A program made the position numbers and the translations under genes. From NCBI GenBank assembly GCA_964016885.1, contig OZ024747.1, forward strand, positions 23,994,001 through 24,058,000: a stretch of DNA of 64,000 bases, given 5' to 3'. Below, one piece after another: positions 10,961 to 61,137 of this stretch (positions within the stretch are counted from its first letter, which is position 1; each line of letters opens with the position of its first letter). This DNA comes from Eledone cirrhosa. Taxonomy: Eukaryota. Under the pieces are notes generated by a model, which saw only the letters and a list, made by a program, of their open reading frames with translations, was not told the origin of the DNA and did not search any database.

Positions 10961-11051
10961 ACCTGAAAGTTTGAAGGTATTTGTCCAGTTCAAACATACA
11001 ACTACTTATTATAATAAAAAAAAACAACAGACTGATGTGGTGTTGTCTCAC

Positions 11052-12154: not shown

Positions 12155-12223
12155 CTGAAATAAACAAGTAATCATCATCATCACAACCATCAACACTATT
12201 TCACAAATATCACATATATATTT

Positions 12224-13461: not shown

Positions 13462-13617
13462 CTGCATCTGAATATGTGGCCAGCAAAGGTGCATCTAAAC
13501 TGTTAAAAAAGCCAACAATGGTAATATCATTGTCTTTCATGTATTTCTGGAGTTCTTTGACAGATGTCTGCAGTTTCGAGGCCCCACCTTGTTGTGAGGT
13601 CATGTAGTTGACAATTC
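13462..13617 (-). CDS. PDIA4: PDIA4 exon 7
   Basis: gtccag|GA...GCAG|gtgagt. Encodes GIVNYMTSQQGGASK...VKELQKYMKDNDITIVGFFNSLDAPLLATYSDA; phase 1/1. Confidence 0.93.
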
Positions 13618-13986
13618 CTGGACAAAACAGAAAAATATATTTACAAATTTCATCAATTATTTTAATGACTAGTAAAGTTTATGATTAAATAGTTTCATTT
13701 CTAAAACATACAACTCTTCACTTAAAAACTGCTCATACTTATGACCATTATCATATGTCAATTACAGTTTACTAAGATAGCATTTTCATTAGATAATCAT
13801 CATTTTATGTCCTCCTTTCATGGGCATAGTTTCTATAGCTGGGTGCTCTTCCTAACACCAACCATTTTAAAGAGTGTACTGAATGCATTGTGTCGTAGCA
13901 CCAACACTACCACTTTACTGAGTGTACTGGGTATATTTTATGGCACATGCACTAACACTTTACATAGTGTACTAGGTGCATTTTAA

Positions 13987-14053
13987 CAAAGAACTCCAGA
14001 AATACATGAAAGACAATGATACTACAATTGTTGGCTTTTTTAACAGTTTAGAT
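13987..14053 (+). other. Inverted intronic copy of 67 nt of PDIA4 exon 7
   Basis: Reverse complement of 13493-13559 at 65/67 positions. Confidence 0.92.
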
Positions 14054-15084
14054 ATAGATGTATTCACTACCAGTTTAGAGAGTGTGCTGGGTACATTTTA
14101 TCAATGCACCAGCGTTAGCACTTTACATAGTGTACTGGATGCATTTTATCATGGCACCTGTACAAAGATTTTATAGAATGTACTGGATCTTTACAGATTT
14201 CTTTTTTCAGATAATTCATTTAATATAAAACTGATACTTGGTAACTTTTCATGCTCTCGTAGAGTATCACCTGTCTGGGAATTTTAAAGTCTAAGTCTAA
14301 ATATATTTTATGACCAGCTCAGTGGAAATGAACAAAACTAAAGCTAAATTATGAAATAAATAGAGATAGAAACTTAAATTAAATATAAATAGTTAGCTAT
14401 GTGAAACTTTTAAAATAGAGACTAGAAATACATTCTAGATTGAAAGATTCTATAATACAATTCAGAGAGAGTAAATAAATTTCAAATATAGGAAATATTA
14501 AAATATTTAAGCAAGATTGTTGTTAAGAATGAAATTACTGTGTTCTAAGTATAATATATTTATAATTATAAAATTAGATATTTCAATACATATAAAAGAT
14601 GAGTACGCAGTTAAGGTGATAATGCTGTTAGTTTTATTTTGTATTTACATTTAGTGTCCTTTATTATAACTGCTTAATAATAGCAAGCTCTCTTTTAGTT
14701 ATCCATGATATTGGGGTGTTCAGGTGTTTATTCGATAAGAGACAGTAGAGTATGGTTATATTAAAGAGTCAGGACAACTAGTTCTGGAGTCTGGAACTAG
14801 CTGTTGAAATGGCAAGAGCTCAGCCATCGGGGTCCTAACTCTTTATAATATATATGTATAATATATACATCTAACCCATGGTAGCATGGAAGATAGATGA
14901 TGATGATGAAATATATATAAGGGCAGTGGATTGGCGTAGTTTTTCAATTCATATAAGATTTTAGTTCTGTCACTCTATATTCTGAGTTAAAACTCAGCTA
15001 ATATTAGTTTTAACTTTTCCGTCTCTGACATCAATAAAATCAGTATCAGTAATACATTGAGATATGTTAATTCTCCTTCCTTAC

Positions 15085-15290
15085 CGTAGTCTTCTCTTGG
15101 TCCTTTATACTCAAAGTCTTTGCCAGCACGAAAAATCTTGAGACTTGGATAACCACTCACTTGATATCTTGATGCTGTAGTTGTTGCAACAGTAGCATCA
15201 ATTTTGGCAAGTGGTATAGGAGGAGTTTGGACAGCAAGTTTCTTGGCAGCTTTTTCAAATTCTGGAGCAAGGCGCTTGCAGTGGCCACAC
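15085..15290 (-). CDS. PDIA4: PDIA4 exon 6 (second catalytic domain)
   Basis: tttag|GTGT...TACG|gtaagg. Encodes [18 protein letters not shown]...LAKIDAT...[24 protein letters not shown]; phase 2/1. Confidence 0.95.
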
Positions 15291-15614
15291 CTAAATGAAA
15301 TCAATTTCAGATTAATAAAAGTGAGAGAACAGAGAGAATTTGTAACATTCATCCATTTACCAAAACCTTTTTTAATGTAAGTAGTGCTTATATTTACCCT
15401 CCATCATAATTCTATGCGGGAACCCTTGTTATGTTCCAAACATCAGCTTAATAATGAGACTTTAAATTCTTTGAAAATCATGGACTGTCTTTCATTAGAA
15501 ATATGGTAATGAAAGAGTGAAATAATTGTTTCTACTATTGGCACAAGGCCAGAAATTACCCAGTACATTACTGGTACTTTAAAGAGTGAAATAATAGAAG
15601 AAAATTATATTTAC

Positions 15615-15753
15615 CATGGTGCATAAAACTCCACAAGAGAAAGCTCATGTTTTTCTACAAAATCTGTAAAATTGCTGTCAGTCAAGGTAATCACAGCCTC
15701 TGGGGGAGGTTTCCAACTTGGGGCAGCTCGTTCCAACATATATTCCACAATAC
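15615..15753 (-). CDS. PDIA4: PDIA4 exon 5
   Basis: aaacag|GT...CCATG|gtaaat. Encodes GIVEYMLERAAPSWKPPPEAVITLTDSNFTDFV...LVEFYAPW; the WxPPPE linker is typical of ERp72. Confidence 0.95.
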
Positions 15754-17145
15754 CTGTTTAAGGAAATATGATATGTATATTAGATGGCAGTTTCTCTATT
15801 GCTTGTGTCACAGATAAGAGGAAGTATATCAACGAGGAAACATCTCATCATAGGTTTCTCAGGTGTTTTAATGATAGAGTCCTATCATGAAAAGCAATGT
15901 AAAATGAATTGTCTTGCTCAATACTCAACATGCTACCCAGTCCAAGAATCAAATTCATGACCTTATGATTGCGAGTCCAATGCTAAACCATGCACCTTCA
16001 CAAGAAAATATACGACATGTATGTTGATCCTGCCTCTGTTATAAGGAAGTTTACCAATAATTGTTTCTACATTTAGCACAAGGCCAACAATTATCCCAGT
16101 GTATTACTGGTGCTTTATTTTATTGACCCTGTAAGGATGAAAGGCAAAGTTAACCTTGGCGGGATTGGAACTCAGACCATAAAGGGCCGTAACTCTTTGC
16201 TGCAAAGCATGGTGCCAGAATGAAGTGGTAGTAGATTTATATCTTGCCCAATTACACCTCTCAAAGGCGATGACACAGGACCGAGACCTCTGATGCCACA
16301 CAGTAATACAGAAGACTCGACTTCCTATGGGTACAAGCTGAAGCTGAAGCATATAGACATTATGCCCCCACTGTAAAGTGGTCGTGTAGGTGTCATGACA
16401 AAAAAAAGCACCCAGTCCACACTGTAAAGTAGGCGCCATAGTAAAAAACACCCATACTCATTGTAAATGAGGTTGGTGTTAGGAAGGGCATCCAGCTGTA
16501 GAAATCAAGCCAAAATCAGTTCTGTATGAGCAAGACATGGTCACCTGACTTGGCATTGCCCACAACAGGATAACCCATTTAACCCATTCTAGCATGGAAG
16601 AATGGACGTAAAAGTAATGATGATGATGATAAACCAGCAGTGAGCTGAGATGTGAAAATACTGGACTACATTAACCAATATGTCCATTTTTTAATGACTT
16701 GAGGGAAATTTGTCTGCAGCTCAAGCAACCATGTAGGGGCTCGCTTTGTGGTTCGTATGTAATGCAAATTCAGAGATGAGAAATGGCGAGGAAACGGGGA
16801 CTTTACACTCTTGTCTGGACAGTATATCTCAGTTGTACCTCTTGGACTAAATGGCAAAATTGTCGCTGCAGAGAACAGCCAGTGATACAAACTGCATTAG
16901 TTATTCCACCTTGTGGGGCTCCCCTTTCATTTCAATGGCATATCACAGTTGTGCCCTGCATAAAGGATGGTAAAAGCACTGCTGCATCAGCCATTCCCCT
17001 TCACCCAAGGTTCCTTCCTCAGGCATAATGTCATCATCCCAATTTGTCTCAGTGATGACAAATCTTGGCAATCATGAACTTTAAACTCTGTTGCACATAA
17101 AATTTAACTTAAAAAAGCATTTATAAAAATGACATTTTTACATAC

Positions 17146-17228
17146 CTTCAGTTTCTCTTGGTCCTTCATATGGAAAAAATTTTCCATTTTTAAAGAATAT
17201 TAAAGTAGGGTATCCGTTCACCTCAAAT
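17146..17228 (-). CDS. PDIA4: PDIA4 exon 4
   Basis: tgtcag|A...GAAG|gtatg. Encodes FEVNGYPTLIFFKNGKFFPYEGPRETE; phase 2/1. Confidence 0.94.
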
Positions 17229-18165
17229 CTGACAGACAAAAAAAAAAAAAATAAAAAAAATAAAAATTACCAACGAAGCATTATTAATGGCAAATCTGCA
17301 GTTTGTGTGATAGAGTTGTTGTTGGGTTGTCTGTCCATAAAACAATGGTATCTAGTATCACTTACTTTCTCTAATCATTGTGTTTGTCTATATAGGACTT
17401 ACATCCAAACAAACATTTCACTTTCTGCCTGTGTCCTGTTCTCTCCTCTCTCTCTGCTCCTTACATGTTATGTTTGTCTATATAGGGCTTACGTCGAAAC
17501 GAACAATTTTCCTCTCACTTCACCTTCTGTACATAGCTTTTCTTCTTGACTAATATGTTGGGCTTTGTTTCTATCTCTTCTTCCCAGTTGCAGCACATTG
17601 GTTTGTAGCTAATTTTATTTATTTGTAAATAGTCGTTAAACCGAGCTCAAATCAGTTCAGTATGAACAAGACAAGGTTACCTGACCTGGAATTGCTCACA
17701 ACAGGACAACTCATCTAATCCATGCTTGCGTGGAAAAATGGACGATAAACATTGATGATAATATATATGCAGGCAGATGCATAAAGACAAACACACAGAC
17801 AAAATGGTGCTGCATGCATGGTTGGATGGTATGTTGGGTGGTTACCTGGGTATCCAAGCCAAGGCCCATAATATCTGGGAGAATTCAAGTTCTGTTCTTG
17901 GGATTGAAATCCCAACAGTTCATCAGGATATCCTTGACATGCCTGGAATTAATGATATGACAATGTTTAATTTCACATGCCACCTACCAAATACTGCTCT
18001 CTGGAGACTGCTGTTTGAAATCAGTCTATATCAAAGCAGTTTATATCAAACCATTTCAAATGAGTATGTGTCAAATTTCATAGAAAAAGGCAGTTTTGTG
18101 TTGGCTGTCTGAGTGTTACCTGCTTAAACTAATTTCCGAAAGAAGAGTTGAAAAGAAGGAACTAC

Positions 18166-18288
18166 CTGGAACTTAAATCAGATTCTACAGTGGAATCAAC
18201 TTTGGCCAGTGATACTTTAGGAGTTGTAGTCTTCAACTTTTTGGCAGCATCGGCATAGGCTGGTGCCAGTCTTTTACAGTGACCACAC
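18166..18288 (-). CDS. PDIA4: PDIA4 exon 3 (first catalytic domain)
   Basis: ttcag|GTGT...CCAG|gtagt. Encodes [18 protein letters not shown]...LAKVDSTVESDLSSR; phase 2/2. Confidence 0.95.
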
Positions 18289-18789
18289 CTGAAGACAGAA
18301 ATCACAATGTAATGTAATACAGGAAAAAAAAAGGTTATTGGGGTTTGTAGAACAGTAATATGAGAGGGGGTAAAAAAAATAGAGCCAGGGTTGACTGAGG
18401 GCAGAGGTTTAAGTGGAGTGGAATTATAGAGTATAGAGGTGTAGTGGAGGAAGAGTTTGGTTAAAGGTGGGTGAGGGTAAGGTAGAGATGAAGACAGAAG
18501 AGGGTGAGGGTAAGGCAGAGTTAGGGATAGAGGTGGGATGGGCACAGAAGTGGAGTGAAGTTAAGGTAGAGATGGGGATAGCGGTAGGGTGAGGGCAAGT
18601 TAGGGGTGGGGACAGAGGTGGAATAATGGTAAGGTAGAGGCAGAAGTGGAGGTGAGAGAGGAAAGCAGGGGTGGGGACAAAGCAACAAAGTGTATATGTA
18701 GCACAAAAATAATTTGATGTATATATATATATATATATTGAAAGTGGATTCAAGTCATATATAGAGAAGAGGCTGAAATATAGTGTCCA

Positions 18790-19420
18790 TAGGCTTTGCT
18801 ATGCGACAGGCACTTTGACATCACAGATATTGTAATATCATAGAGAGTACAGTATTATAGCCACTGCGATATCAGACACTACAACATCAAACATTATCAT
18901 ACAGTCACTGTGACCTCATAGACACTGCAACATCACAGACATTGTGATATTATAGACACTGTGACCTCATAGACACTGCAACATCACAGACATTGTGATA
19001 TTATAGACACTGTGACCTCAGAAACTGTCATGTCATAGCCAATGCAAAATCAGTCACTACATCAGTCATTGTGATATAGTCACTGCGACCTTATAGTCAC
19101 TGTGGCCTTATAAACACCATGATATTATTGCTACTGCAACATCACAGATATAGTTCCTGTGACCTTATAGACACCGTGATGTCATAGCCACTGGGACATC
19201 ACAGACAGTGTGATATTGTAGTCACTGTGATGTCATAGACACAACATCACAGACACTATAACATCATAGACAGTGATATTGCAGCATCAGACAGTGATAT
19301 TATAGCCATAGTGATATCACAGACACTGCAACATCACAGACAGAGTGATATTATAGCCACAGTGATATCACAGACACTGCAACATCACACACACTGCGAT
19401 ATCATAGGCAATGTGACCAA
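18790..19420. repeat. Degenerate ~17-bp minisatellite with 51-bp higher-order unit in PDIA4 intron 2
   Basis: Units such as CATCACAGACACTGCAA, TATTATAGACACTGTGA and CCTCATAGACACTGCAA; a 51-bp block is exactly duplicated at ~18906-19018. Confidence 0.8.
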
Positions 19421-19457
19421 TAAGGGAAAACTATTTATTAATAAATGTAAAACTTAC

Positions 19458-19566
19458 CATGGTGCATAAAATTCCACAAGAACTGTATCTCTGGAGTAAA
19501 TGACATCATCAAAGTTGTTATTATTTAAGACCAATACATTATCTTCCTCAACTGGTTCATCACTAT
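19458..19566 (-). CDS. PDIA4: PDIA4 exon 2
   Basis: ctgtag|AT...CCATG|gtaagt. Encodes DSDEPVEEDNVLVLNNNNFDDVIYSRDTVLVEFYAPW; phase 1/2. Confidence 0.94.
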
Positions 19567-19825
19567 CTACAGTCAAATATAAATACTCAGTTGTTATCAA
19601 TGGATTGTGTGTTGCAGATATTAACACATTTTTTGTCTTGATCCTAATTTGAATTAATCAATTAATTTACTAAAGTTATTGTTTCATTAATATGCTATTT
19701 AAAACATAACAAATGGTTCTTATATTATATTTTGTTGAAAAATTTAAATACAAACTTTTTAAAATAGATGGTTTTATTTCATTGAACCAGTGGCAGTTTT
19801 GGGGCAGGTTGGTACCAAAAGGGTT

Positions 19826-21886
19826 TGTAGCGGTTGTCTCCCTTGTTTTGATTAGGATCTAGACGGGAGGTGGAACCCTTTCTGCAACTTCCGGTCAGAG
19901 CCCTATAAAACTAACAACTTTAAGCTTCCTTTCTCTCTTTGCCTTTTCGGCACCAGGTCAAGAGTCTTCTCATTTGGCTCTGCCATTAATTTGGCCAACA
20001 GGCGCCCTCTGCCAGCCGCGTTTGCCTGGCAATCAAAACGGTAACTACTAACTTTGTTTCATTCTAACATCTATATTTCACATGTCAAGTATACTATCTA
20101 CCGTTAATTAAATATTATATACACAAACCATGTCTCGTTTTGTTACATTCATACAACCAGTATCCTCGCTATATTGGTAACCCTGACGTGATACGAACAC
20201 GCAGCCGTTCATCGCTATAAGTGGTCACCCCCAAAAAAAGAAAAAAATAGCACATCTGGTTTTGTGAGTAACATTACGAATACACAGCAAATTTAGCGAC
20301 AAACTATGAAAATACTCAAGGACACGCACACACGCACATGTGGAATTCGCACAGACATACTTTTTCTCTCGCGCATCAATTAACTGTCGCATTTCACGAT
20401 ATATATATATGTTTCTCGTTTCTTACAACGAACTCTTTCAAAACACAAAAAAAAAAAGAAATTTGATATTCTTTAAAAAACATTTCAACAGGAACATTTA
20501 TTTTCGATGAACCATTGCCTTTTGTTCTTCGTTTTCTTCATCGTTCAAGTTTTTTGTTTTTTTTCCAAAGTTCACACCTATAATTATGCTGATTGAAGCC
20601 TTTCTTTTTCATCATTGTCACTTTCAAAATTGCACTATCATTTTCTCGCGCGTTAGAAATATTTTTTTTTTTTCCAACCTTGTATTGGCACGTGTAGGCA
20701 GCATAAATTCTCGATTCACTGAGATGTCTCTACTCACAGACAGCCGCACGCCATTTATCACCAGGGATTCTTCAGCCTTAAGCTATATTCTTCTATTTGC
20801 CGGTTTATAAATTTACAATGTAAATTTACCGTTGATAACCGCGCATTTATTAAGAATGCTTATTTCTCTGGTCGCTGGCCTCTTGACCCTTCCAGGTCAA
20901 CGCATTCTCAACATCGACCATCAACTTCGGCTGCTATTTCTAGCACTTTGTGCAACTCATTTTTTTCTAAAAAAAAATTTTTTTACTGTGAATTTAAACA
21001 CCGAATACGCTCACTCAGCGAGACAACAGCGGCAGCAACAGCAATATAACAGCAACAGCAATACATCAATACAGCTTCACCAAAGCCAGAGAATTCATTT
21101 TTGCAGCACTCTTCCTGTGAGAAAATCCATTCGGAGGTTGGAAATTTCACGATATACCACAGAACAGAAACCACCTGCATTCATTCTCTGGAACACACTT
21201 TCTTTCCTGCTGTCATGTGATTGCACACCTGTGAACTATATTTTGAACTTTGAGCTCTTCTATTACTTTTACTTTATTACATTGTATCTTTGGGTGATGG
21301 ATAGATGGATGTCCAGTCGTTCTCTGGCCAAGAGCGGTTGGCTACCTTGATATCTATCATTGATTTTTCCAAACATTCTTTTGTCGTAATTTTCATGCCT
21401 GTTACAACATTCTCGCCAACTTGCTACATATTTTCATTTCGATTTTTATACACTAAAATTCTGGCGGGAGGTTATGTAGCGGTTGTCTCCCTTGTTTTGA
21501 TTAGGATCTAGACGGGAGGTGGAACCCTTTCTGCAACTTCCGGTCAGAGCCCTATAAAACTAACAACTTTAAGCTTCCTTTCTCTCTTTGCCTTTTCGGC
21601 ACCAGGTCAAGAGTCTTCTCATTTGGCTCTGCCATTAATTTAGCCAACAGGCGCCTGGCCTTAGCCAGGCGCCCTCTGCCAGCCGCGTTTGCCTGGCAAT
21701 CAAAACGGTAACTACTAACTTTGTTTCATTCTAACATCTATATTTCACATGTCAAGTATACTATCTACCGTTAATTAAATATTATATACACAAACCATGT
21801 CTCGTTTTGTTACATTCATACAACCAGTATCCTCGCTATATTGGTGACCCTGACGTGATACGAACACGCAGCCGTTCATCGCTATA
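19826..21886 (+). mobile_element. Young non-autonomous LTR retroelement (Gypsy-like termini) in PDIA4 intron 1
   Basis: Direct repeats 19826-20219 (394 bp) and 21475-21886 (412 bp) with termini TGTAGCG...CGCTATA. 4-bp TSD GGTT on both sides. Degenerate PBS TGGTCACCCCC after the 5' LTR; purine tract GGCGGGAGG before the 3' LTR. The 1255-bp interior has no gag/pol motifs. Confidence 0.92.
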
Positions 21887-29934: not shown

Positions 29935-30146
29935 TATATATGAAAAGATTCAGGACCCCGACAGCTGAGCTCCGGTCGTTTCGACAGCTAGATCCAAATT
30001 CATTTCGGATTTAGCTGTCGAAACGGCCGGAGCTCAGCCGTCGGGGTCCTGAATCTTTTCATATATACCCACTCTACTACCCCAAGTATCGAGTACTTTG
30101 GTGCGTTATCGTCCACCTGGTATCTTACCACACCCTTTTTGTTATA
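29935..30146. mobile_element. Palindromic short element between microsatellites (family also at 60950-61137 and 14700-14850)
   Basis: ~60-bp arms 29935-30066 followed by a tail CCACTCTACTACCC.AAGTAT.GAGTACT.TGGTGCGTTAT.GTCCA.CTGGT..CTTACCACA...GTTATA(TA)n that is shared with 61056-61137. Confidence 0.75.
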
Positions 30147-30193
30147 TATATATATATATATATAGTTATGTAATAAACAACATAAGATAATTA

Positions 30194-30253
30194 TTTCATT
30201 TACCAGTGGTTTCTTGAAAGCAAACAAATTTGCTTTCAGTCATCAGAATGAAA
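30194..30253 (-). ncRNA. Type I hammerhead ribozyme
   Basis: TTTCATT-CTGATGA-c-TGAAAGCAAA tttg TTTGCTTTCA-a-GAAACC act GGTA^AATGAAA: 7-bp stem I, 10-bp stem II, 3-bp stem III, GUA triplet. Confidence 0.85.
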
Positions 30254-30392
30254 AAATCCTGGTGTATTTTATACACCAGGATTTTTTCATTAATAGATGC
30301 ATGCATACATCACATATACATATTTATATCTATTTATCTATGAGACAGTTCGATCGCTTATTAGTTATGTAATAAACAACATAAGATAATTA

Positions 30393-30452
30393 TTTCATTT
30401 ACCAGTGGTTTCTTGAAAGCAAATAAATTTGCTTTCAGTCATCAGAATGAAA
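30393..30452 (-). ncRNA. Type I hammerhead ribozyme, tandem copy 199 bp from the first
   Basis: Same fold as 30194-30253 with one loop II difference. Confidence 0.85.
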
Positions 30453-30647
30453 AAATCCTGATGTATAAAATGCACCAGGATTTTTTCATTCAAATTTGTT
30501 TCAACAAATTTATTTGCTTTCAAGAAACCACTGGGAAATGAAATAATTATCTTATGTTGTTTATTACATAACTAATAAGCTCTGTAACCTACATAGAGCA
30601 CTCTTTTTTCCTGGACCTTTCCGACAGAATTACTTCACACACACACA

Positions 30648-32711: not shown

Positions 32712-32742
32712 TTGGAGCTCTGGAATAGCAATATATATATGG

Positions 32743-33282
32743 ATGTATATATAATGTATTTTGCAATACACTTTATGCTTAATTAAAAGCATTTTGAAGA
32801 CCGTAAGCTATTGTTTTAAAGTAGTGACAAATTCACTCACTTTGATCTCAGCAAACAGAGGAGATAAGCCGACAAGACTTGTTTCGCTTTGGTTGAAGCT
32901 TATCAAGGCCAACTACCCCACCTGTTTGCTGAGATCATTGATGTTATATTCTTATAGAAATCTAGTAAATAATCAGGAGCTGATTATGCAGAGCGGTTGT
33001 TGGTCAGGCAGAAATTAAAAACCAACAACCGCTCTGCATAATCAGCTCCTGATTATTTACTAGATTTCTATAAGAATATAACATCAATGATCTCAGCAAA
33101 CAGGTGGGGTAGTTGGCCTTGATAAGCTTCAACCAAAGCGAAACAAGTCTTGTCGGCTTATCTCCCCTGTTTGCTGAGATCAAAGTGAGTGAATTTGTCA
33201 CTACTTTAAAACAATAGCTTACGGTCTTCAAAATGCTTTTAATTAAGCATAAAGTGTATTGCAAAATACATTATATATACAT
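32743..33282. repeat. Near-perfect palindrome, 262-bp arms, 16-nt spacer, flanked by (TA)n
   Basis: 32743-33004 is the reverse complement of 33021-33282, which explains the mirror-image ORFs in the track. Confidence 0.95.
33089..33181 (+). ncRNA. Hammerhead-like ribozyme with U3:A8 core variant (mirror copy at 32844-32936, -)
   Basis: TTGATAA-GCTT caacca AAGC-GAAAC aa GTC^ enclosed by a long stem I (GATCTCAGCAAACAGG / CCTGTTTGCTGAGATC). The base of stem I is imperfect. Confidence 0.6.
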
Positions 33283-33347
33283 ATATATATATATTGTTAT
33301 ACTTTGGGAGGGTCATGTTGCCAATAAGAAACACACGCACATATATA

Positions 33348-40160: not shown

Positions 40161-41415
40161 AACGTCAATTTTTTAAAATTTTCTTTTTTAAGTTAGACAA
40201 CTAAAATAAGTCAGTTTTACTGAAATATAATCCCAAGTATAGTTTCTGGAATCAAGAAACAATATTATCTCAATAAATTAAAACAACCAATATTGGAAGA
40301 ATTTTCCGCTTTCTATGGGAAATTCATTGGAAGTAGAGAAAATATTGAATTACTAACAAATAGATCAAGTCGTTGTCGAAATTGTATGGTGTCCAATTTC
40401 TTAATGTTGATTTAGTAGTTTAATGACATAACCTGTTGGACATCATACAATTTCGACAATAACATAGCCGGTATGTTAGCTATTCAATATTTTCTTTACT
40501 TCTAAAGAATTTCCCCAGGAAGACGGAATAATTCTTCTAATATTGGCTGTTTAATTTATTGAGATGATTCACTAAAAGATTTCAATTCTTGAAGCATTAG
40601 AGTTCTTTCAGTGGTTTAAAGCCCACATCTCCTGAATGTCAATTTTAAGTTTTTACGATCTTATAATTTTTATCTTTCGTGAATGGAGAACCAAGAAAAG
40701 TCATTAAAGAAAACACAGACTTCGTCATAAAGAAGCAGAATTGACACAACTGAAGTAAGACATAAAATTATGGGTACAAAATCAACAAAGTCTGGGGTAT
40801 GAACAAATAAGTTAATGTATGTGTCTACGTGTATGTGCGTATATGTGTGTATATGTGTATGTATGTGCATATATGTGTGGAACAAAATGGAAGAAATGTG
40901 GGGGTGGGAGTCTGAATAAAGATGTTGATGTATATGTGCCTGTGTATGCGTATAGGTGTACGTATGTATATATATATGTATATATTTGTGTATGTTGATG
41001 TGTGTGTGTGTGAGGGCATATGTATATGTATGCGCATGGCTTATTGGCTGGAGTGAGCAGCTCACGATTGTAAGTTTGTGAGTTCGATTGCTGACGGAGA
41101 ATTGTTTTTTTGAACAAGACACTTTATTTCACGTTGCTAGTCGACTCAGCTGTCGAAAATGGACTGTACCTGTAATTCAAAGGATCAACCTTAGTCCACA
41201 ATGTCACGCGGAATCTCCCCGAGAACTATGTTAAGGGTGCACATGTTTTGGGAATGCTCAGTCACTTGCATGCTAATTTCACGAGCAGGCTGTTACGTTG
41301 AACGAAACAACTGAAATACTCGTCTTCAGATCCGACGAAGGTCCAAAACACGTGCGTGTAATATGTAAGCAGGTGAATGTGGAATGTGTATATGTGCATG
41401 CGTGTGTGTATATGC

Positions 41416-42441: not shown

Positions 42442-45208
42442 CTACCTACCTACCTACCTACCTACCTACCTACCTACCTACCTACCTACCTACCTACCTA
42501 CCTACCTACCTACCTACCTACTTACCTACCTACCTACCTACCTACCTACCTACCTACCTACCTACCTACCTACCTACCTACCTACCTACCTACCTACCTA
42601 CCTACTTACCTACCTACCTACCTACCTACCTACTTACCTACCTACCTACCTACCTACCTACTTACCTACCTACCTACCTACCTACCTACCTACCTACCTA
42701 CCTACCTACCTACCTACCTACCTACCTACCTACCTACCTACCTACTTACCTACCTACCTACCTACCTACCTACTTACCTACCTACCTACCTACCTACCTA
42801 CCTACCTACCTACCTACCTACCTACCTACCTACCTACCTACTTACCTACCTACCTACCTACCTATCTACCTACCTACCTACCTACCTACCTACCTACCTA
42901 TCTACCTATCTACCTACCTACCTACCTACCTACCTACCTACCTACCTACCTACTTACCTACCTACCTACCTACCTACTTACCTACCTACCTACCTACCTA
43001 CCTACCTACCTATCTACCTACCTACCTATCTACCTACCTACCTACCTACCTACCTACCTACCTATCTACCTACCTACCTACCTACCTACCTACCTACCTA
43101 CCTACCGACCTACCTACCGACCTACCGACCTACCTACCTATCTATCTATCTACCTACCAAAGAGGTTGGCGCTTGTCGTGGGCCAGTTGCAAACTATCCC
43201 TGAAAGGTCGGGCGGAGGTGGCGAACACCTACATAGCGTCCGTCATCTACTACCGCCTGACCGTAGTGCCCTGCTCAAGGGAAACCCTCACCAAGATGGA
43301 GCGCGCGCTCTTCCAATTCCTTTGGAAGAGGCGGGCTCCTATGGTGAGGAGATCCATCTGCTGTCAACACCCTTCGAAAGGAGGGCTGGGGATGCCGTGG
43401 CTAATGATGCGTAAACACGCATTAAGGCTACGGCACCTCTACGTATTCCTCACCGGACAACCGGTGTGGGCCTCGTTTGTGAGACGAACCTTTCCCAGAC
43501 TCGTCTCACTCACCGAGCTGCAATCCTGGGTCAAGCAAAGACCGAGAAAACTGGGCGCCTGGCACACTGAGTGTGCCCAGGCGCTCACCGCCCTCTGGCA
43601 GGCGGATCCGGTTATCAGTGGAGACTCCACCGCAACATTCTATAGAGGGCTGGTACGCAGCAGGTGCGACGACGCCCTCGGAGAAGCCCTAGACATGGAG
43701 GAGGACGAACTGGCCAGCCTGTTCGGTAGGACATTCAGCCCGGGACCTATGGACAACTTCCAGAAGTCCCTGGCCTGGCAGTGCTACCGAGGGGCTTTAC
43801 CCGTTCGAGAAAGGCTCTACAGACACGGGCGCCCGGGTAGGGACCCCGCCAAAAAGATCTGTCCCAGATGCGTGTGCGACGAGGAAACCGTTGCACACGC
43901 ATTGGTACACTGCTCGGGCGTAGCCGATCTGTGGGGCTATGTCGAACAACTGCTGTCAAGGGTGGGACCGATCCGGTTGACCACCGAGTCTATTGTAATG
44001 ATCAAACCGCCTCCCCCCTTCAAAGATGAAGCAGAGGCGGTGTTTCTGTGCGTAATAGCCATGGCGAAAGAGGTTGTATGGTGGACGCGTCTGAAAGGAC
44101 TGAGGTCAGGCACCTTTCTCTCTGGCCAACAACTGGTCCGTTTCTTCCGATATCATTTCGGAAGAAGGATCAGGATGGAGAGAGAGGTGCTGCACCCCAG
44201 TCGTTTTTATGAAAGGTGGGTGAAAGTGGCGAGAATGGCCCGTGTGAATGGGCCTTCTCTTTACATAAGCCTGTAGGTGGAAAAGAGGAAGGAACGAGGG
44301 AGCACCCCCTCTCTGTGCTCCTGAGGAAAAGGGTTGCACACTTTTTTCGGGGGTGTGTGCGACCCCCCAAGGCGCCTCCTCTCTATTGAGGATTTTGTTA
44401 AAAATTTTATTTTTTGTTATATCTTATTTTATTTTTATATTTTGTTATTGCCTCCTCCTTATTGAGGACGCCTTTTTGTGTAAACTCCCCCCCTTTGTAC
44501 TTGTCCCACTTTTGATGCCCTAGTGGCAAATAAAAGAAACTTATCTACCTACCTACCTACCTACCTACCTACCTACCTACCTACCTACCTACCTACCTAC
44601 CTATCTACCTACCTACCTACCTACCTACCTACTTACCTACCTACCTCCCTACCTCCCTACCTACCTACTTACCTACCTACTTACCTACCTACTTACCTAC
44701 ATATCTACCTACCTACCTACCTACCTACCTACCTACCTACCTACCTACCTACCTACCTATCTACCTACCTACCTACCTACCTACCTACTTACCTACCTAC
44801 CTACCTACCTACCTATCTACCTACCTACCTACCTACCTACCTACCTACCTACCTACCTACCTATCTACCTACCTACCTACCTACCTACCTACCTACCTAC
44901 CTACCTACCTGCCTACCTACCTACCTACCTACCTACCTACCTATCTACCTACCTACCTACCTACCTACCTACCTACCTACTTACCTACCTACCTACCTAC
45001 CTACCTATCTACCTACCTACCTACCTACCTACCTACCTATCTACCTACCTACCTACCTACCTACCTACCTACCTACCTACCTACCTACCTACCTACCTAC
45101 CTACTTACCTACCTACCTACCTACCTACCTATCTACCTACCTACCTACCTACCTACCTACCTACCTACCTACCTACCTACCTACCTATCTACCTACCTAC
45201 CTACCTAC
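42442..45208. repeat. Very long (TACC)n microsatellite split by a LINE (42442-43158 and 44541-45208)
   Basis: About 700 bp of CCTA repeats on each side of the insertion. Confidence 0.95.
43159..44540 (+). mobile_element. 5'-truncated Tx1/L1-group non-LTR retrotransposon with intact ORF2 C-terminus
   Basis: ORF 43173-44276 encodes W...[12 protein letters not shown]...FLW...GGLG.P...CPRC...[11 protein letters not shown] (post-RT region plus CCHC zinc knuckle). GC/CpG-rich; the 3'UTR ends AATAAAAGAAAC. Confidence 0.9.
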
Positions 45209-45392: not shown

Positions 45393-46184
45393 CAACATAC
45401 ATTTTTTTTTTCAAATGCTTTAGTCTTTATTGTGTTGTATCAGATGAAAGAATGATAGGCTCTATGCATTTTTATTACTTTACATACTGGTTTGGAACCC
45501 CACCCATACACCTATCTATCTATATATGTATGTATATATGTACGAACGTACGTATGTATGTATGTATGTATGTATGTATGTATGTATGTATGTATGTATG
45601 TATGTATGTATGTATGTATGTATGTATGTATGTATGCTTATATGTTCGAACGTACATATGTATGTATGTATCTATGTGTATGCATGTGTGCATGTATGTA
45701 TACATGCATGTATTTATTATATAAGTGTTCGTGTATGTATGTATGTATGTGTAGGTACGTATACATGTCTGTGCACGTATGCATGTGTGTGTGTACATAC
45801 ACATGTGTGTGTGTGCACGTATACATGTATGTGTGCACGTATACATGTGTGTGTGTACGTATACATGTGTGTGTACGTATACATGTGTGTGCATGTGTGA
45901 ATGCATGTGTGTGTGTATGTGTGTGTGTATGTATGCATGTATGTGTGTGTGTATGTATGCATGTGTGTGCGTGTGTGTGTAGGTAGTCAACCCCGTTCTC
46001 GATATAATTATTTACTCGGTTACTAAACAAATATCGAAGCGCAACAAACGCAAACACGGATGATTTAGCAATTCTGGAATATCAGTACTTATACACACAC
46101 ATATATATATATATACATATATACATACATACCATATATATATACGATATTAACAAATGAAAACTATATTTATAAAACCATATT

Positions 46185-46249
46185 TATTTCATTATACATA
46201 TTTCAAGCATACCAAGTTAAATTATGGTATGCCTTCATCAGACAAAATA
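46185..46249 (-). ncRNA. Type I hammerhead ribozyme
   Basis: TATTTTGT-CTGATGA-AGGCATACCA taatttaact TGGTATGCTT-GAAATA tg TATA^ATGAAATA: 8-bp stem I with G-U pairs and 10-bp stem II. Confidence 0.85.
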
Positions 46250-46321
46250 CAATATATACCAGTTTTATAAATAGACAAAAAATATTTACTTGTTGTATCC
46301 CAACAATTTAAATAGAACTTT

Positions 46322-46370
<49 letters not shown>

Positions 46371-46444: not shown

Positions 46445-46497
46445 ACATATATATATATATACAACAAATGTATATATATATTTATATATATATATAT

Positions 46498-46918
46498 ATA
46501 TTGTTATACTTTGGGAGGGTCATGTTGCCAATAAGAAACACACGCACCAGTTGCTTTCACTTCAATTTATTATAATAAATTCATAAATTTAGTAATTTAT
46601 AAATTTCCGGTTGGTTGGTTCCACAACCAGATGGTTGTTTATATATTGTCAAAGTTCTTTCGTCACACATTCTGTGACCTCTTCAGTGACTGGGGATTCT
46701 TTTCTTTGTTTTTGTGCCTCTCCTTTGTTCTGTCCTACGCCATCTTGAAACAAGATGGCGTAGGACAATATATAAACAACCATCTGGTTGTGGAACCAAC
46801 CAACCAACCGGAAATTTATAAATTCCTAAATTTATGAATTTATTATAATAAATTGAAGTGAAAGCATGGTGCGTGTGTTTCTTATTGGCAACATGACCCT
46901 CCCAAAGTATAACAATAT
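46498..46918. mobile_element. Penelope-type terminal-repeat element with ~150-bp inverted arms
   Basis: Arms TTGTTATACTTTGGGAGGGTCATGTTGCCAATAAGAAACACACGCACCA... and their reverse complement. The same terminus occurs at ~33294, 34693, 51459 and 58585-58625(-). Confidence 0.8.
46648..46690 (-). ncRNA. Minimal type I hammerhead ribozyme (same family as 34809-34853)
   Basis: GTCA-CTGAAGA-G-GTCACA gaatg TGTGAC-GAAAG aa CTT^TGAC. Confidence 0.75.
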
Positions 46919-47156: not shown

Positions 47157-47797
<641 letters not shown>

Positions 47798-48664
47798 AAA
47801 TATATATATATATACACACACACGCACACACACACACACACATATATATACGGGATAACAGATTATTGTTATATGCAGTCCACTTAAGTGTAGTCCAGTT
47901 ATGGTATTCCGGGTAGTGGATGATATCAACGCTTGGCTAAGTTTGACTCAACAAGGCGTTTCCATAGTGATGTTGCGAGTACGCTGTAATTCCTATGTTG
48001 TAAACACTTGGAGTAATGATAAATCAGGAAGGAAGAGTGACACGGTTTGCTATACAAAAAAGGTTTTTAATCTCATTGCTGACAATTGTTTCTCTGAACT
48101 GGTAGGTCTAGAGATCGCTACCCGCTTGTTTTCACGTTATTCGATCACCAATACCAAGTTGTAACCAGTCAATTCATCGGAGCTTGTGAGAATGAAAGGA
48201 ATATACAGGCATGGCTACTATATATATTAGTAATGGCATTCAATCAGAACAATAACAACAATACTAACAATGCTAGCAATAAATTATTTGAAATAATCAC
48301 AACATCAATCTAGGTGGGAAATATAGTATATCTACGATTTTAGCGTGTAAAACTAGCTGACATGAGGCAGATGTATAAAATTGACATGTAAAAGCTGTCA
48401 TGGGGTGTATTATATATAGTGTAAAGATAAGCCGGTGGCTTTAAACAATGTAGGTCTGGTGGCCGTAAGAATCACTTATTATCTGACAGATGAAGAATTT
48501 ATCACTGTATGAGGATAGTAATATTTGTCTGGTCTATATTAGATGAAAGGGTTGTCTAACTTTCTCATCACCAATAACATACATGTATAAGACAACATTA
48601 ACAGAGTAGCAATATAATAGGCAAGTTAATACAGAGGTTAAGGAGGCAATATATATATATATAC

Positions 48665-48725
<61 letters not shown>

Positions 48726-49099
48726 GGAAAAAATGAAACGAAATTTCATTTCTCACTCTTAGTACGGCTGTTACTTAAATATAAGTATGTATATGTACAT
48801 ACATATATGTATACAGACGTACAGTAGTATTTATATATATATACATACATGCACACATATATATATGTACGTATGGATTCACGGAACATTTATTATAATG
48901 CTCGGTGTGCTTGTAAACAAACATCCCGAATTAAGCCGTAAGAGTGAGAAATCAAATTTCGTTTCATTTTTTCCGTTTATCGTTTTCGGTACCCCGGCCG
49001 ATTAACTCACTCGATATGCAAATTAGGCTGCTCAGCCGTTAATATGCATAAGGAAAGTATATACTTTCAGACGTTCAACCATCTGGCAGGAAGGTATAG

Positions 49100-49138
49100 G
49101 TTGCTGATGATAGCTAATAAGCTTGAAACTAGTACAGC
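49100..49138 (+). ncRNA. Minimal type I hammerhead ribozyme
   Basis: GTTG-CTGATGA-t-AGCT aata AGCT-t-GAAAC ta GTA^CAGC with palindromic stem III ACTAGT. It lies between inverted arms 48781-48940 and 49189-49340. Confidence 0.75.
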
Positions 49139-49357
49139 GTTCCTTTGTTAGTGTTGAACAAATGAGCAACGATGGTTGCTAGACACTGTACGGCTTAATT
49201 CGGGATATTTGTTTACAAACACACCGAGCATTATAATAAATGTTCGGTGAATCCATACGTACATATATATATATATGTGTGCATGTATGTATATATATAT
49301 ATACGTCTATATATATATATGTACGTCTGTATACATATATGTATGTACGTATACATA

Positions 49358-49462
<105 letters not shown>

Positions 49463-49491
49463 ATATATATTTATATTTATATATATATATA

Positions 49492-51195
49492 AAGAGAAAA
49501 CATGCTGACTACAATTATAACAGGAGGAAGGTAAAGTTCTGCTGTAGTAGTATTTTGAAATGTTCTTGGATTTAGGTTCATTTGTTGAGAGTCAAGGGTG
49601 AGGAAGTTGTGTTGACAGCAGCTGAGAAGAGATATATTTATGGGTTGGTAAGGTACTTACAGACATTAGTGTGGTATAGAACTAAGAAGGCTAGAATGTA
49701 CTTAATGATTATATTTCTGTGGTGGTTCGTGCAGTATAGTGGGTATCCTAAGTTGAAAGCTAAGTTACGTCGGTTCGATTCACGGAGGCTTAAATCTTAT
49801 GAATTTAGTGGCGATCCTGTGTCTGCAGAAGATTGATCTTTCTAACTTGTTGAGTAGCCTTTTTACATTTCTAAGGATATATAGTAATTCTAGATCACAG
49901 AGCCTACAGTGGGACATACCGGTACTGTAGGTCTTTGCGGCCGACAACCTCGACCAGTTGATACTGTAGTTGGTGTTATTGTCCTTAAGTGCCCAGATTT
50001 TTTTGGCGAGGGTTGTAGAACCCATAAGTGCACGGTTTTTCATCGAGTGTCTGTGCACATACCATCTTTTTTTAAAAGTACCCGCGGTGGATCCAATGTA
50101 ATGCCAAGTGGAGTTGTCTGAGTTGACCGTACACATGTACACTAGGCTCGAATCAAGGCATCTATTCGCCAATGGTAGGTGACAGTTACAGTTTGAGGTG
50201 TTATTTCGTGCAGCTTCCGCACTGCTGTTTTGTACACTGCTATAAGTGGGTTGTGATTCATGCCCGTTGGGGTTTTGCTGCTGCGTGCTTGTATGCGCTT
50301 GCGGTTGTGATACTGTGATGTGTTTATGTTTATAATTTGGTGCTATGTTCCGCATAGGTGGGGCGGATTCCCTAGAGGTATTTCTGTGGTTGATCTTGCG
50401 TATGTGCGATTCTATATTTGCTGCCGTAGAGTATGAGACTTTTATAGCTTTTCTATTGAGTATTTTATGATATCTTTGTGAAATAGGGAAGTGTTTATCT
50501 ATTAGTTTAAAGAATGTAGAAGACAGTCTAGATTTTACAGAGGAGTTTAAGATTGGATTGAACCATAGGTATTTTCTTTCTCTGATTCTTCTATTGTTTC
50601 TAGGGTTTACATTATTGGTGTTTGGACCGCTTACTCTAGGCGCTACGTGCCTAACTCTATGTCTAGTCATGTTACCTCTATTTTTGTGAGAGCGGTTGGT
50701 GTAATTGCTAGTAGGTTTGTTTAAGTTGTCTTTATTCGCTATATACTGCAGTTTATTTTTATGTCCAGCCCTATGTAATGCTGCGTTATAATAGTTAGCA
50801 TGTTCATTAAACATTTCTAGGTTTGAGGATAAGCGGGATATGCTAAGGGATATACTACGTGCTATGGATCTGATTATGGATTTGGGGTGGTTTGAGTTAT
50901 AACTAATGTAGGCCAAATTCTCATTATTTTTGTGGAAGGGTTCTATTAATCCCGTATTTAGATTTAGAGTCACATCTAGAAAGTTTACCTTCTTATGGTT
51001 CAGTTCGTAGGTAATATTTAGGCCTAGTTTTTTGAAGAATGTTCTAATGTTTTTTCTTAATCTTTCCATGCTCTGGTTGTTTAAGTTCCTAGCTATAAGG
51101 AGCGTGTCGTCTCTATAAATCCCTCCTTGGAGGTTACTGAATTCCTTATGTAGGTTGTGTGCTATAAATAGGTCCACGACGTCAGTGATTTGCGC
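49492..51195 (-). mobile_element. 5'-truncated Penelope-like retroelement (Naiad-type) encoding RT C-terminus plus GIY-YIG endonuclease
   Basis: Open frame ~51195->49780 contains GIYRDDTL, VNFLDVTLNLNTG, SNHP, WFNP, KVSYS, CNC..P....C, VY.C...YIGST..FKKR..H, IWALK, CRLC..E, LLN..E....CRH. Both ends abut (TA)n/(CA)n. The track's N-terminal YIYI/CVCV is microsatellite. Confidence 0.9.
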
Positions 51196-51238
<43 letters not shown>

Positions 51239-53764: not shown

Positions 53765-54224
53765 ATCAACAAATGAGCACAAGCATATATCTCCTCTTCA
53801 GCTATCCCTTGGAAATACAATTTCGTACACTAGGATGGTATTATAAAATTATAGCCATGTCTTACAGCGCCTTAATTTTTTTAGGCACTCCGGGGGGTGA
53901 GGGTGGGGTAGAGGCGTAAGGCAACACAACAACAAAGTAACTGAACAGAAAATAAATAGTACAGGTGAATACAAACGACTATATATATATGAACGTATAC
54001 GTATGTTTGTATATATATATATATATTTGTGTCTACTTTAGGCACAAGGCCAGCAATTACCCAGTTCATTACTGGTACTTTATTTTATCGACCCCGTAAG
54101 GATGAAAGGCAAAGTCAACCTCGGCGGGATTTGAACTCAGATCGTAAAGGGACGTAACTATGCTGGAAAGTATGGCGTCCGACCCTCTACCGATACTGCC
54201 AATCCACCGCCTTATATATATATA

Positions 54225-55042
54225 TATTATATTATATTTAGAGTTTAAACTCAAAGTCATTTACAATTAATCAGCTCAAAGAAAGAAGCATTTCCGAGCA
54301 GTGAAATACAAGTTAATATATATTAATATATGATAAACACATACGTGTTTGTATTGCAACAGACAAATATAAGCTTGTCTTTATTGACTTATATCGAGAC
54401 AGACAAATTGTATTCATTTTAATTAGTTTATTTCATTCTAGCTAACTTTGTCTCTTGCAATACAAACACGTATGTGTTTATCATATATTAATATATATTA
54501 ACTTGTATTTCACTGCTCGGAAATGCTTCTTTCTTTGAGCTGATTAATTGTAAATGACTTTGAGTTTAAACTCTAAATATAATATAATATTATTGCTCCT
54601 TAACTGTAGAGCTAATTTTTAATCCCATATAAACGGCTGTTATTTCTATCACTGTGAGTATGGGATGGCTAGTATAGCTGATTATACCTCGTGTGAATCA
54701 GTCCTACAACATTTTTGGAGGTGAAATGTACTAATTTTACGGGACTCCTGTTGATAAGCACAGAAGATTTGAATATTTCACTTTTTATATTTCACTTTTT
54801 ATACCATCGTTGCGAAACATATTTAAGTTTCGAAGTTCAAATTCATCTACGGAGCAGGTTTGGATTTTGAAATTTAAATTTGTCCAGGAATCACGGCTTT
54901 TGCCAATATAAGCTTGTCTTTATTGACTTATATCGAGACAGACAAACTGTATTCCTTTTAATTAGTTTATTTCATTCTAGTTAACTTTGTCTCTTGCAAT
55001 ACAAACACGTATGTGTTTATCATATATTAATATATATTAACT

Positions 55043-55047
<5 letters not shown>
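54225..55047. repeat. Palindrome (arms ~140 bp, 54225-54590) plus direct duplicate of its core at 54907-55047
   Basis: 54225-54367 is the reverse complement of ~54447-54590; 54367-54508 is repeated at 54906-55047, ending in (TA)n. Confidence 0.85.
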
Positions 55048-55118
<71 letters not shown>

Positions 55119-55200
55119 AAAGTTTTATTTAAATTGTTGGGATACAACAAGCAAATATTTTTATAACTGATATAAAGCACTCGACAAATATTTGGAGTAG

Positions 55201-55298
55201 ATATACGATATTAATAAATGGAAACTATATTTATAAAACCCTATTTATTTCATGAAATAAATATGGTTTTATAAATATAGTTTCCATTTATTAATATC

Positions 55299-55304
<6 letters not shown>
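55201..55304. repeat. Spacer-less 52-bp-arm palindrome centred on TTTCA|TGAAA
   Basis: Arms correspond to the sequence 3' of the hammerhead at 46185-46249. 55115-55175 matches the other flank of that element (46260-46324) in reverse. Confidence 0.85.
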
Positions 55305-55341
<37 letters not shown>

Positions 55342-55347
<6 letters not shown>

Positions 55348-56296: not shown

Positions 56297-56362
<66 letters not shown>

Positions 56363-56369
<7 letters not shown>

Positions 56370-56745
56370 TAAACGGAATAGAAAATGCTGACAAATTGTT
56401 CACAGTTGAAAAATGGTTTAATTAGGAATAAAAGAGTATTAGTGATTGTATGGGTTAGTATTCAGTTTAAGTTTTTAAGTTTTTACCGGTTGCGCATTTC
56501 TAAATGCTTTTCAAAAATAATTTTGAGATAGAGTGTCCGTGCTGTTTGCTCTGATCAGCACGGACACTCTATCTCAAAATTATTTTTGAAAAGCATTTAG
56601 AAATGCGCAACCGGTAAAAACTTAAAAACTTAAAACCACAACTGAATACTAACCCATACAATCACTAATACTCTTTTATTCCTAATTAAACCATTTTTCA
56701 ACTGTGAACAATTTGTCAGCATTTTCTATTCCGTTTACCAATATA
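56363..56745. repeat. Palindrome, ~180-bp arms, 11-nt spacer, flanked by (TA)n
   Basis: Centre GTCCGTGCTG tttgctctgat CAGCACGGAC. Contains a decayed hammerhead-like motif at 56583-56619. Confidence 0.92.
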
Positions 56746-56776
56746 TAATAACTTGTGTGTTACACCTCTATTCTTT

Positions 56777-56822
<46 letters not shown>

Positions 56823-56915
56823 AACATACGTATACGTTTGTATTCACCTGTACTATATATATATTATTTATATATATATATTATATAATTACATAATAAA
56901 CAACACAATATAATT

Positions 56916-57074
56916 ATTCCATTACCAAAGGTTTCAGGAAACCAGACGATCTTAACAGAAATGTCCAGCACGCTCATCAGATGAAATATTACATCTGATG
57001 AGATTTCATCTGATGAGCGTGCTGGACATTTCTGTTAAGATCATCTAGTTTCCTGAAACCTTTGGTAATGGAAT
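56916..57074. ncRNA. Head-to-head pair of hammerhead ribozymes (56916-56987 on -, 57003-57074 on +)
   Basis: ATTTCAT-CTGATGA-(38 nt weak stem II)-GAAACC ttt GGTA^ATGGAAT. The downstream tail GCTCTGTA...TACATAGAGCACTCTT..(AC)n is shared with the 30163-30637 element. Confidence 0.7.
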
Positions 57075-57163
57075 AATTATATTGTGTTGTTTATTATGTA
57101 ATTAAATAGCTCTGTACAATACATAGAGCACTCTTCTTCCTTTTACCTTTTCTACGGAAATAC

Positions 57164-57269
<106 letters not shown>

Positions 57270-60949: not shown

Positions 60950-60954
<5 letters not shown>

Positions 60955-61137
60955 AAAAAGTATGACCCCGCCGGCAGAGCTCAAGCCGTTTCTGAGTCTA
61001 GAAATAGCCGTCGAAACGGCTTGAGCTCTGCCGTCGGGGTCATACTTTTTCCTATTACCCACTCTACTACCCTAAGTATTGAGTACTCTGGTGCGTTATG
61101 GTCCATCTGGTTCCTTACCACATCTCCTTCGTTATAT
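60950..61137. mobile_element. Palindromic short element, second copy of the 29935 family
   Basis: Arms ATAGGAAAAAGTATGACCCCG.CGGCAGAGCTCAAGCCGTTTC / GAAACGGCTTGAGCTCTGCCGTCGGGGTCATACTTTTTCCTAT; shared tail; (TA)n flanks. Confidence 0.75.

What the first reader, a model, noticed from the sequence alone, without database searches (positions are those of the whole stretch)
55201..55304. Spacer-less palindrome centred exactly on a hammerhead cleavage site (case 2)
Seen: the 46185-46249 hammerhead predicts a 3' product starting ATGAAATAAATATGGTTTTATAAATATAGTTT. At 55252 that sequence begins at the symmetry axis (TTTC-AT-GAAA), and the ribozyme core is absent. Inference: RT ran off the 5' end of the self-cleaved RNA and the cDNA folded back, giving a direct genomic footprint of in vivo cleavage and a mechanism for palindrome formation.
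Basis: partly seen in the sequence, partly recalled or inferred. Interest (0 to 1): 0.72.

Follow-up and report, generated by a model that had tools for sequence, protein, structure and literature searches.

The report
Head-to-head retroelement ends at ribozyme cut
Two copies of a retrotransposon end sit head to head, both starting exactly where its self-cutting RNA is predicted to cut; the arrangement is a known one, and this single exact match hints at, but does not prove, cutting in the living animal.

Summary
The palindrome is real: 52-bp arms, 1 mismatch, no spacer, axis 55252|55253. Both strands begin at the first base after the predicted cut (N1.1) of a minimal type I hammerhead and overlap by 'AT'. 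The locus is therefore the known Penelope-like (PLE) head-to-head insertion in (TA)n with a tail at one end. Best reading (0.42): both DNA strands primed reverse transcription on an RNA whose 5' end was the cut site, and the two cDNA ends annealed by AT/AT. A zero-loop fold-back in cis needs lucky untemplated bases (0.18). I put a cleaved template at about 0.6. Against a general mechanism: only 1 of 11 head-to-head junctions in the window with a placeable cut site lies there (chance 13-21%). Eight of the other palindromic junctions lie 23-135 nt upstream. Family-wide reads show no depth step at the cut (3-4% decline). It is a good lead for in vivo PLE hammerhead cleavage, but n = 1.

The parts
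55201..55253 (-). Left palindrome arm: family-B sense +1..+53, starting at hammerhead position N1.1
55116..55200 (-). 85-nt family 3' tail (+54..+138), present on the left arm only; ends at the family's long 3' end
   Evidence: reads continue past the short end into this sequence (opposite-strand joint 46152/46279 in 1297 and 1602 reads, 27 and 28 starts; loose ends before 46152 in 11766 and 12294 reads); +92..+138 matches 46278-46324 at 95.7%
55252..55304 (+). Right palindrome arm: family-B sense +1..+53, ending at the short 3' end (internal TATAT) and merging into (TA)n
55252..55253 (.). Axis: 2-nt self-complementary overlap AT, which is N1.1-N1.2 of both strands; no spacer
55046..55115 (.). 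(AT)n target, left flank
55305..55343 (.). (TA)n target, right flank; any target-site duplication cannot be resolved
46185..46249 (-). Family-B minimal type I hammerhead used to place the cut: stem I 46249-46242 / 46192-46185, core 46241-46235, GAAA 46204-46201, cut between 46193 and 46192
   Evidence: among the 40 of 85 variant rows shown, the only core position is N7 (46237)
46146..46324 (.). Second family-B insertion, also head to head: minus arm about -85..+53 with an intact hammerhead, plus arm +92..+138 only. The arms share no sequence, so one cannot be a fold-back copy of the other.

Best explanation
This is a short, non-coding insertion of a high-copy PLE pLTR-type family in a (TA)n microsatellite. 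Shown from sequence: two copies head to head, both starting at N1.1, overlapping by AT, one ending at the long 3' end (+138) and one at the short 3' end (+53). Inferred mechanism: a PLE RT-GIY-YIG protein nicked both strands of (TA)n, and each nick primed reverse transcription, one from the long end and one from the internal TATAT. The template was one RNA (twin priming with read-through) or two RNAs cut together as a hammerhead dimer, with its 5' end made by hammerhead self-cleavage. Both cDNAs ran off at the same base and ended ...TTTCAT-3'. The two 3' ends annealed through AT/AT and were filled in, giving TTTC-AT-GAAA with no loop. Cleavage fixed the axis of this one palindrome; most insertions of these families came from uncut RNA.
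For: Both strands start at exactly N1.1. It is the only one of the 11 inverted repeats listed with no spacer, apart from one (TGCA)n simple-repeat hit; the other 9 have spacers of 3-21 nt. Two different 3' ends are used. The 46146-46324 insertion has non-overlapping arms, which needs two priming events. An Anolis PLE protein nicks and extends both strands in vitro, starts at two sites that define the tail, is predicted to be a dimer and assists its hammerhead (PMC11167929). Stem III ATATGTAT is self-complementary, as in the dimeric minimal hammerheads of PLEs (PMC4209133). In R2, the ribozyme cut site correlates with genomic 5' junction type (PMC3774820 abstract). A second, weaker case: the family-A plus arm resumes at +2..+5 through a GACA microhomology.
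Against: n = 1. In one search, raw-read depth falls only 3.7% and 3.4% from bin 46183-89 to bin 46197-203 (6.5% and 6.2% for plus-strand first mates), with no step. None of the 15 of 46 joints or 24 of 351 loose ends shown lies at 46190-46193. PMC11167929 found cleavage dispensable in vitro and no RNA-seq reads ending at the cut. Minimal hammerheads cleave poorly in vitro. Cleavage of this motif was not assayed. No autonomous partner of family B was found.
Confidence: 0.42

Rival explanations
1. Chance: an ordinary PLE head-to-head junction whose position happens to coincide with N1.1. The RNA 5' end or RT stop was set by decay or stalling, not by self-cleavage.
For: Other junction offsets spread from -135 to +92. 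78 self-complementary dinucleotides lie in the 223 nt of family B available for a 2-nt overlap. P(at least 1 of 11) is 0.13-0.21. There is no depth step in reads.
Against: Exact N1.1 on both strands, the only spacer-less element junction in the window, and a second near-hit at +2..+5 in family A. P(at least 2 of 11) is 0.008-0.02 if that one is counted, although it may be a plain microhomology deletion.
Confidence: 0.3
2. One reading: one cDNA ran off the self-cleaved 5' end, gained a few untemplated bases (G-A-A), snapped back as TTT-CATG-AAA, copied itself and jumped to (TA)n at the internal TATAT.
For: Snap-back after full-length cDNA is documented for R2 protein insertions (PMC11371274 passages). 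Other window junctions look like snap-backs: three have 3-nt AAA/TTT centres, and the 29990 axis sits on what looks like the family's natural hairpin. The arms share family-polymorphic alleles.
Against: It needs specific untemplated bases and priming from a 1-3 bp stem. The templated cDNA end forms no terminal hairpin (-0.3 kcal/mol). Shared alleles are equally expected from twin priming on one RNA.
Confidence: 0.18
3. Structure without cleavage: family B has an extended stem I around the core. An uncut cDNA or a replication fork folded back at stem I, and the 49-nt core loop was lost later, which also puts the axis at the cut site.
For: The 5' flank and the inverted 3' arm share a 12-nt exact match plus the 8-bp stem I, so the core is the loop of a quasi-palindrome. 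Plus arms at 30271 and 30476 break off exactly at the end of the 5' strand of stem I.
Against: The junction reads TATTTCAT, the exact complement of the 3' strand, whereas the reference stem I 5' strand is TATTTTGT with a common TATTTTAT variant (40 of 85 variant rows shown). It needs a second, precise symmetric deletion; central deletions in palindromes are usually asymmetric (recalled).
Confidence: 0.1

Closest known systems
Inverted 5'-truncated pLTR / head-to-head structure of endonuclease-containing Penelope-like elements (PMC3846280 and PMC8557442, passages read)
   Same: Head-to-head copies, palindrome or short overlap at the inverted junction, tail at one end only, (TA)n targets, hammerhead in the repeat.
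   Different: The tail is 85 nt rather than 30-40. No ORF lies between or beside the copies. The junction falls exactly on the hammerhead cut, which the passages read do not describe. PMC3846280 explains the palindromes by self-priming on an antisense template.
Anolis Poseidon (PAc) in vitro system (PMC11167929, parts 1-2 of 4 read)
   Same: Both strands cut and extended, two RT start sites defining the tail, AT-rich target; this matches the two 3' ends here.
   Different: There, unprocessed RNA was the dominant template and no reads ended at the cut. This locus would be the exception made from cut RNA.
R2 HDV-like ribozyme setting genomic 5' junctions (PMC3774820, abstract) and R2 cDNA snap-back junctions (PMC11371274, passages)
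   Same: A ribozyme-made RNA 5' end shapes the genomic junction; cDNA ends can prime inverted synthesis.
   Different: Different element class and ribozyme. In R2 it is the rule; here it is 1 of 11 junctions.
L1 twin priming (recalled; seen only as a reference title)
   Same: Two primers on one RNA give an inverted 5' piece; the 46146-46324 insertion has this form.
   Different: L1 twin priming gives non-duplicated halves. A palindrome needs the downstream-primed RT to read through the part already copied.
Non-LTR retrozymes (bioRxiv 10.64898/2026.07.22.740005, part 1 of 5 read)
   Same: Non-coding, type I hammerhead, related to PLE pLTRs.
   Different: Defined as tandem arrays with a hammerhead in each unit; the copies here are dispersed and head to head.

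Membership tests
Minimal type I hammerhead (PLE type) | CUGANGA and GAAA boxes, UH cut site, stems I and II | tested here: met
   stem I 8 bp, stem II -12.5 kcal/mol; 7 hits in the window against 1 in 30 shuffles. Fold z = -2.47.
Minimal type I hammerhead (PLE type) | Short stem III with a palindromic loop that allows a dimer | tested here: met
   ATATGTAT pairs with itself (8 bp, 2 G-U; read from the sequence). The common variant at 46197 gives ATATATAT.
Minimal type I hammerhead (PLE type) | Core conserved across copies | tested here: inconclusive
   Only N7 appears among core positions, but only 40 of 85 variant rows were shown.
Minimal type I hammerhead (PLE type) | Match to an Rfam hammerhead model | tested here: not met
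   6 weak matches at E<=10, none a hammerhead; none among the 150 of 232 rows shown.
Minimal type I hammerhead (PLE type) | Self-cleavage at the predicted site | not testable with these tools
   Needs an in vitro assay or RNA 5'-end mapping.
PLE inverted-pLTR insertion | Head-to-head inverted 5'-truncated copy | tested here: met
PLE inverted-pLTR insertion | Optional tail at one 3' end | tested here: met
   85-nt tail on the left arm only; longer than the published 30-40 nt.
PLE inverted-pLTR insertion | (TA)n / AT-rich target | tested here: met
   Both flanks are (TA)n.
PLE inverted-pLTR insertion | Repeat belongs to the pLTR of an RT + GIY-YIG ORF | tested here: inconclusive
   An RT/GIY-YIG-like fragment lies at 49780-51201 (Atlas 0.96-0.97 to HTH_animal / GIY-YIG / RVT_1 clusters; no Pfam hit), but it shares no sequence with family B. 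No whole genome is held.
Non-LTR retrozyme | Tandem units, each with a hammerhead | tested here: not met
   Both window copies are head to head. Only rare go-back joints among those shown (6 and 15 reads). Tandem arrays elsewhere in the genome are not excluded.
Cleavage-defined 5' junction (R2-like rule) | 5' ends of copies cluster at the ribozyme cut | tested here: not met
   1 of 11 window junctions; depth decline of 3-7% across the cut with no step. A small hot spot of a few percent is not excluded.

The most novel reading that the evidence does not exclude
PLE hammerheads do cleave in vivo during retrotransposition, and PLE head-to-head palindromes are made by two RT subunits priming from both nicked strands and copying the same RNA to its 5' end. 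Each palindrome axis would then record a template 5' end, and a loop-free AT overlap at N1.1 would be a countable genomic signature of ribozyme cleavage across animal genomes.
Probability: 0.4. Interest if true: 0.62.

Novelty: new variant of a known kind. Interest (0 to 1): 0.38.

Why it matters
Two questions are stated as open in the papers read: whether PLE hammerheads cut in vivo (PMC4209133; PMC8557442; PMC11167929 found no reads ending at the cut) and how PLE inverted structures form (PMC8557442). This locus points to a cheap test that needs only an assembly: map junction offsets relative to N1.1 in high-copy families. The window suggests the material is plentiful, with 11 placeable junctions in 64 kb and about 30,000 family-B reads per RAD run. 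If there is no excess at N1.1, the locus is an ordinary PLE remnant.

Tried and rejected
Rfam gave no hammerhead. An exact 35-nt family pattern had 0 hits in metagenome and viral contigs. A degenerate hammerhead pattern gave 11 metagenome loci; all 11 have stem I of 2 bp or less and no match to the window, so they were dropped as chance. No RNA holder was listed. A crude k-mer fit of the X1 contig depth was inconclusive: the weight for an end at the cut was 0, 23 or 98 depending on the assumed left boundary, and 0 in the best-fitting run. My early idea that the locus was one full copy whose core had been replaced by a template switch was rejected: the supposed 5' part and the 26-nt insert are the family's own 3' tail in reverse. 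Simple loop-out of the core between the stem I strands cannot give 52-bp arms. A relaxed hammerhead scan found no site in the palindromes at 56300-56820, 54224-54590 and 40264-40568, so these three were left out of the junction count; it also missed 32725-33300, which I placed by eye. Earlier scan findings: nothing in 3 look-ups. Literature: searches listed no paper reporting PLE junctions at the hammerhead cut. Most subscription papers are not held, and Fig. S2 of PMC11167929 could not be seen (one search found no terms in 3 text supplements).

Full report
Setting. The window is eukaryotic and rich in microsatellites, with many short inverted repeats. No whole genome is held. The host was not identified.

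Observation. The palindrome at 55201-55304 has 52-bp arms, one mismatch and no spacer; the axis lies between 55252 and 55253. The minus strand from 55253 and the plus strand from 55252 both read ATGAAATAAAT... and agree at 52 of 53 positions. At 46185-46249 (minus) a type I hammerhead descriptor finds CUGAUGA, a stable stem II, GAAA, a short self-complementary stem III, UA^ and an 8-bp stem I, with N1.1 at 46192 and a 3' product starting ATGAAAT. The descriptor gives 7 hits in the window and 1 in 30 shuffled windows. Rfam does not recognise the motif. Its form matches the minimal hammerheads described for PLE pLTRs (PMC4209133, parts 1-2 of 4 read). So both strands of the palindrome start exactly at N1.1 and overlap by AT.

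Sequence left of the palindrome (55116-55200) also belongs to the family. I laid 4 of the 12 listed runs on 46141-46330: 3803 and 51 contigs from X1 and X4, and 30001 and 33060 raw RAD reads from X10 and X11. Most reads that reach the short 3' end continue into this sequence (loose ends in 11766 and 12294 reads; opposite-strand joint 46152/46279 in 1297 and 1602 reads). It is therefore the family's 3' tail. The locus is (AT)n, a leftward copy +1..+138, a rightward copy +1..+53, then (TA)n. The reference locus is itself head to head, with a minus arm of about -85..+53 and a plus arm of +92..+138 that share no sequence. Head-to-head copies with a palindromic junction, a tail on one end and (TA)n targets are published hallmarks of PLE insertions (PMC3846280 and PMC8557442, passages).

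Is the match to the cut site special? I placed every head-to-head junction in the window whose family has a locatable cut site, 11 in all. B 55252: +1/+1. B 46277: -85/+92. C 47520: -135. D 56987: -65. D 30267: -67. D 30460: -61. G 29990: -31. G 60992: -23. F 33004: -134. A 46747: -96. E 48940: one arm at +55. For G and F the cut is placed by eye from a half or degenerate core, and for D 30267 and D 30460 by eye from cores the strict descriptor missed. Three further palindromes had no placeable site and were left out. Only this one is at the cut. Families C and D keep the whole hammerhead region in both arms at 47235-47814 and 56882-57108 (one C core has a substitution), so cleavage is not how these palindromes generally arise. 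In family A the plus arm copies 17 nt back and then resumes at +2..+5 through GACA, a weaker second case. Under a rough uniform null, P(at least 1 of 11 within +-1 to +-2 nt) is 0.13-0.21 and P(at least 2) is 0.008-0.02.

Family-wide reads. Depth falls 3.7% (X10) and 3.4% (X11) between bins 46183-89 and 46197-203, with no step at 46192. None of the 15 of 46 joints or 24 of 351 loose ends shown lies at the cut. Limits: the RAD libraries look biased towards copies that contain the core, since about 10,500 reads per run stop at a GCATG inside stem II (probably a restriction site; inference). Hairpins amplify poorly (general knowledge), and many rows were not shown. A major hot spot is unlikely; one of a few percent is not excluded. 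The contig-depth fit was inconclusive.

Mechanism. A loop-free junction cannot come from in-cis fold-back of the templated end (no terminal hairpin) unless untemplated G-A(-A) is added. Two identical cDNA ends annealing through AT/AT give it directly, and identical ends need a defined RNA 5' end. A PLE protein that nicks and extends both strands from two start sites has been shown in vitro (PMC11167929). The two family 3' ends on the two arms, and the non-overlapping arms at 46146-46324, fit two priming events. Models with a cleaved template sum to about 0.6. Shown: the anatomy, the family link of the tail, the junction offsets and the read profile. Inferred: cleavage, priming on both strands and end annealing.

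Against my reading. The same in vitro paper found cleavage dispensable and no RNA-seq reads ending at the cut. Minimal hammerheads cleave weakly. No autonomous partner was found: the RT/GIY-YIG-like fragment at 49780-51201 shares no sequence with family B.

Novelty. The structure is known. The base-exact coincidence of a PLE inverted junction with the hammerhead cut was not found in searches, within a library that lacks most subscription papers; the R2 precedent was seen as an abstract only. Verdict: a real feature and a variant of a known PLE structure that makes an open question testable, but on single-event evidence. Interest 0.38.

Noticed in passing
window 46490-46918: Family-A head-to-head insertion: minus arm to -96 with an intact hammerhead, a 17-bp fold-back around AAA, then the plus arm resumes at +2..+5 of the cut through a GACA microhomology. 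Either a second cut-site footprint or a plain deletion.
   Followed up: partly
window 30165-30633: Two family-D junctions with nearly the same axis but the 3-nt centre in opposite orientation (TTT and AAA). In both, the plus arm breaks off exactly at the end of the 5' strand of stem I and lacks CUGAUGA.
   Followed up: partly
window 29935-30142, 60950-61122, 14770-14854: Family G: GAAAC..GUC^ half of a hammerhead with a palindromic GAGCTC in loop III. The 29990 palindrome axis coincides with a hairpin also present in the non-palindromic copy at about 14770, which suggests snap-back at stem II.
   Followed up: partly
window 47235-47814, 56882-57166, 32725-33300, 56300-56820, 54224-54590, 40264-40568: Further long element palindromes (arms about 100-286 bp where measured) next to (TA)n. 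Tails of about 60-85 nt on one arm in families B, D and G are longer than the published 30-40 nt.
   Followed up: partly
window 49780-51201 (minus): 5'-truncated PLE-like ORF (RT C-terminal part plus GIY-YIG-like domain) starting in a microsatellite; no hammerhead found in its 290-nt 3' flank.
   Followed up: partly
window 48650-49491: Family-E partial tandem plus inverted copy, with a small hammerhead (N1.1 at 49135); the inverted arm starts at +55.
   Followed up: partly
window 46160-46280: Family-B stem I is extended by a further 12-bp perfect helix, so the hammerhead core is the loop of a quasi-palindrome.
   Followed up: partly
window about 9200-21000 (minus): Exons of a protein disulfide isomerase gene (WCGHC motifs; named from recall), with a 27-bp tandem array at 12223-13241 in an intron.
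   Followed up: no
window 43203-44276 (plus): C-terminal fragment of a LINE-type ORF with zf-RVT, between (CCTA)n arrays.
   Followed up: no
window 54905-55047: 143-bp duplicate (97.9%) of part of the 54224-54590 palindrome, directly left of the (AT)n flank of the finding.
   Followed up: no
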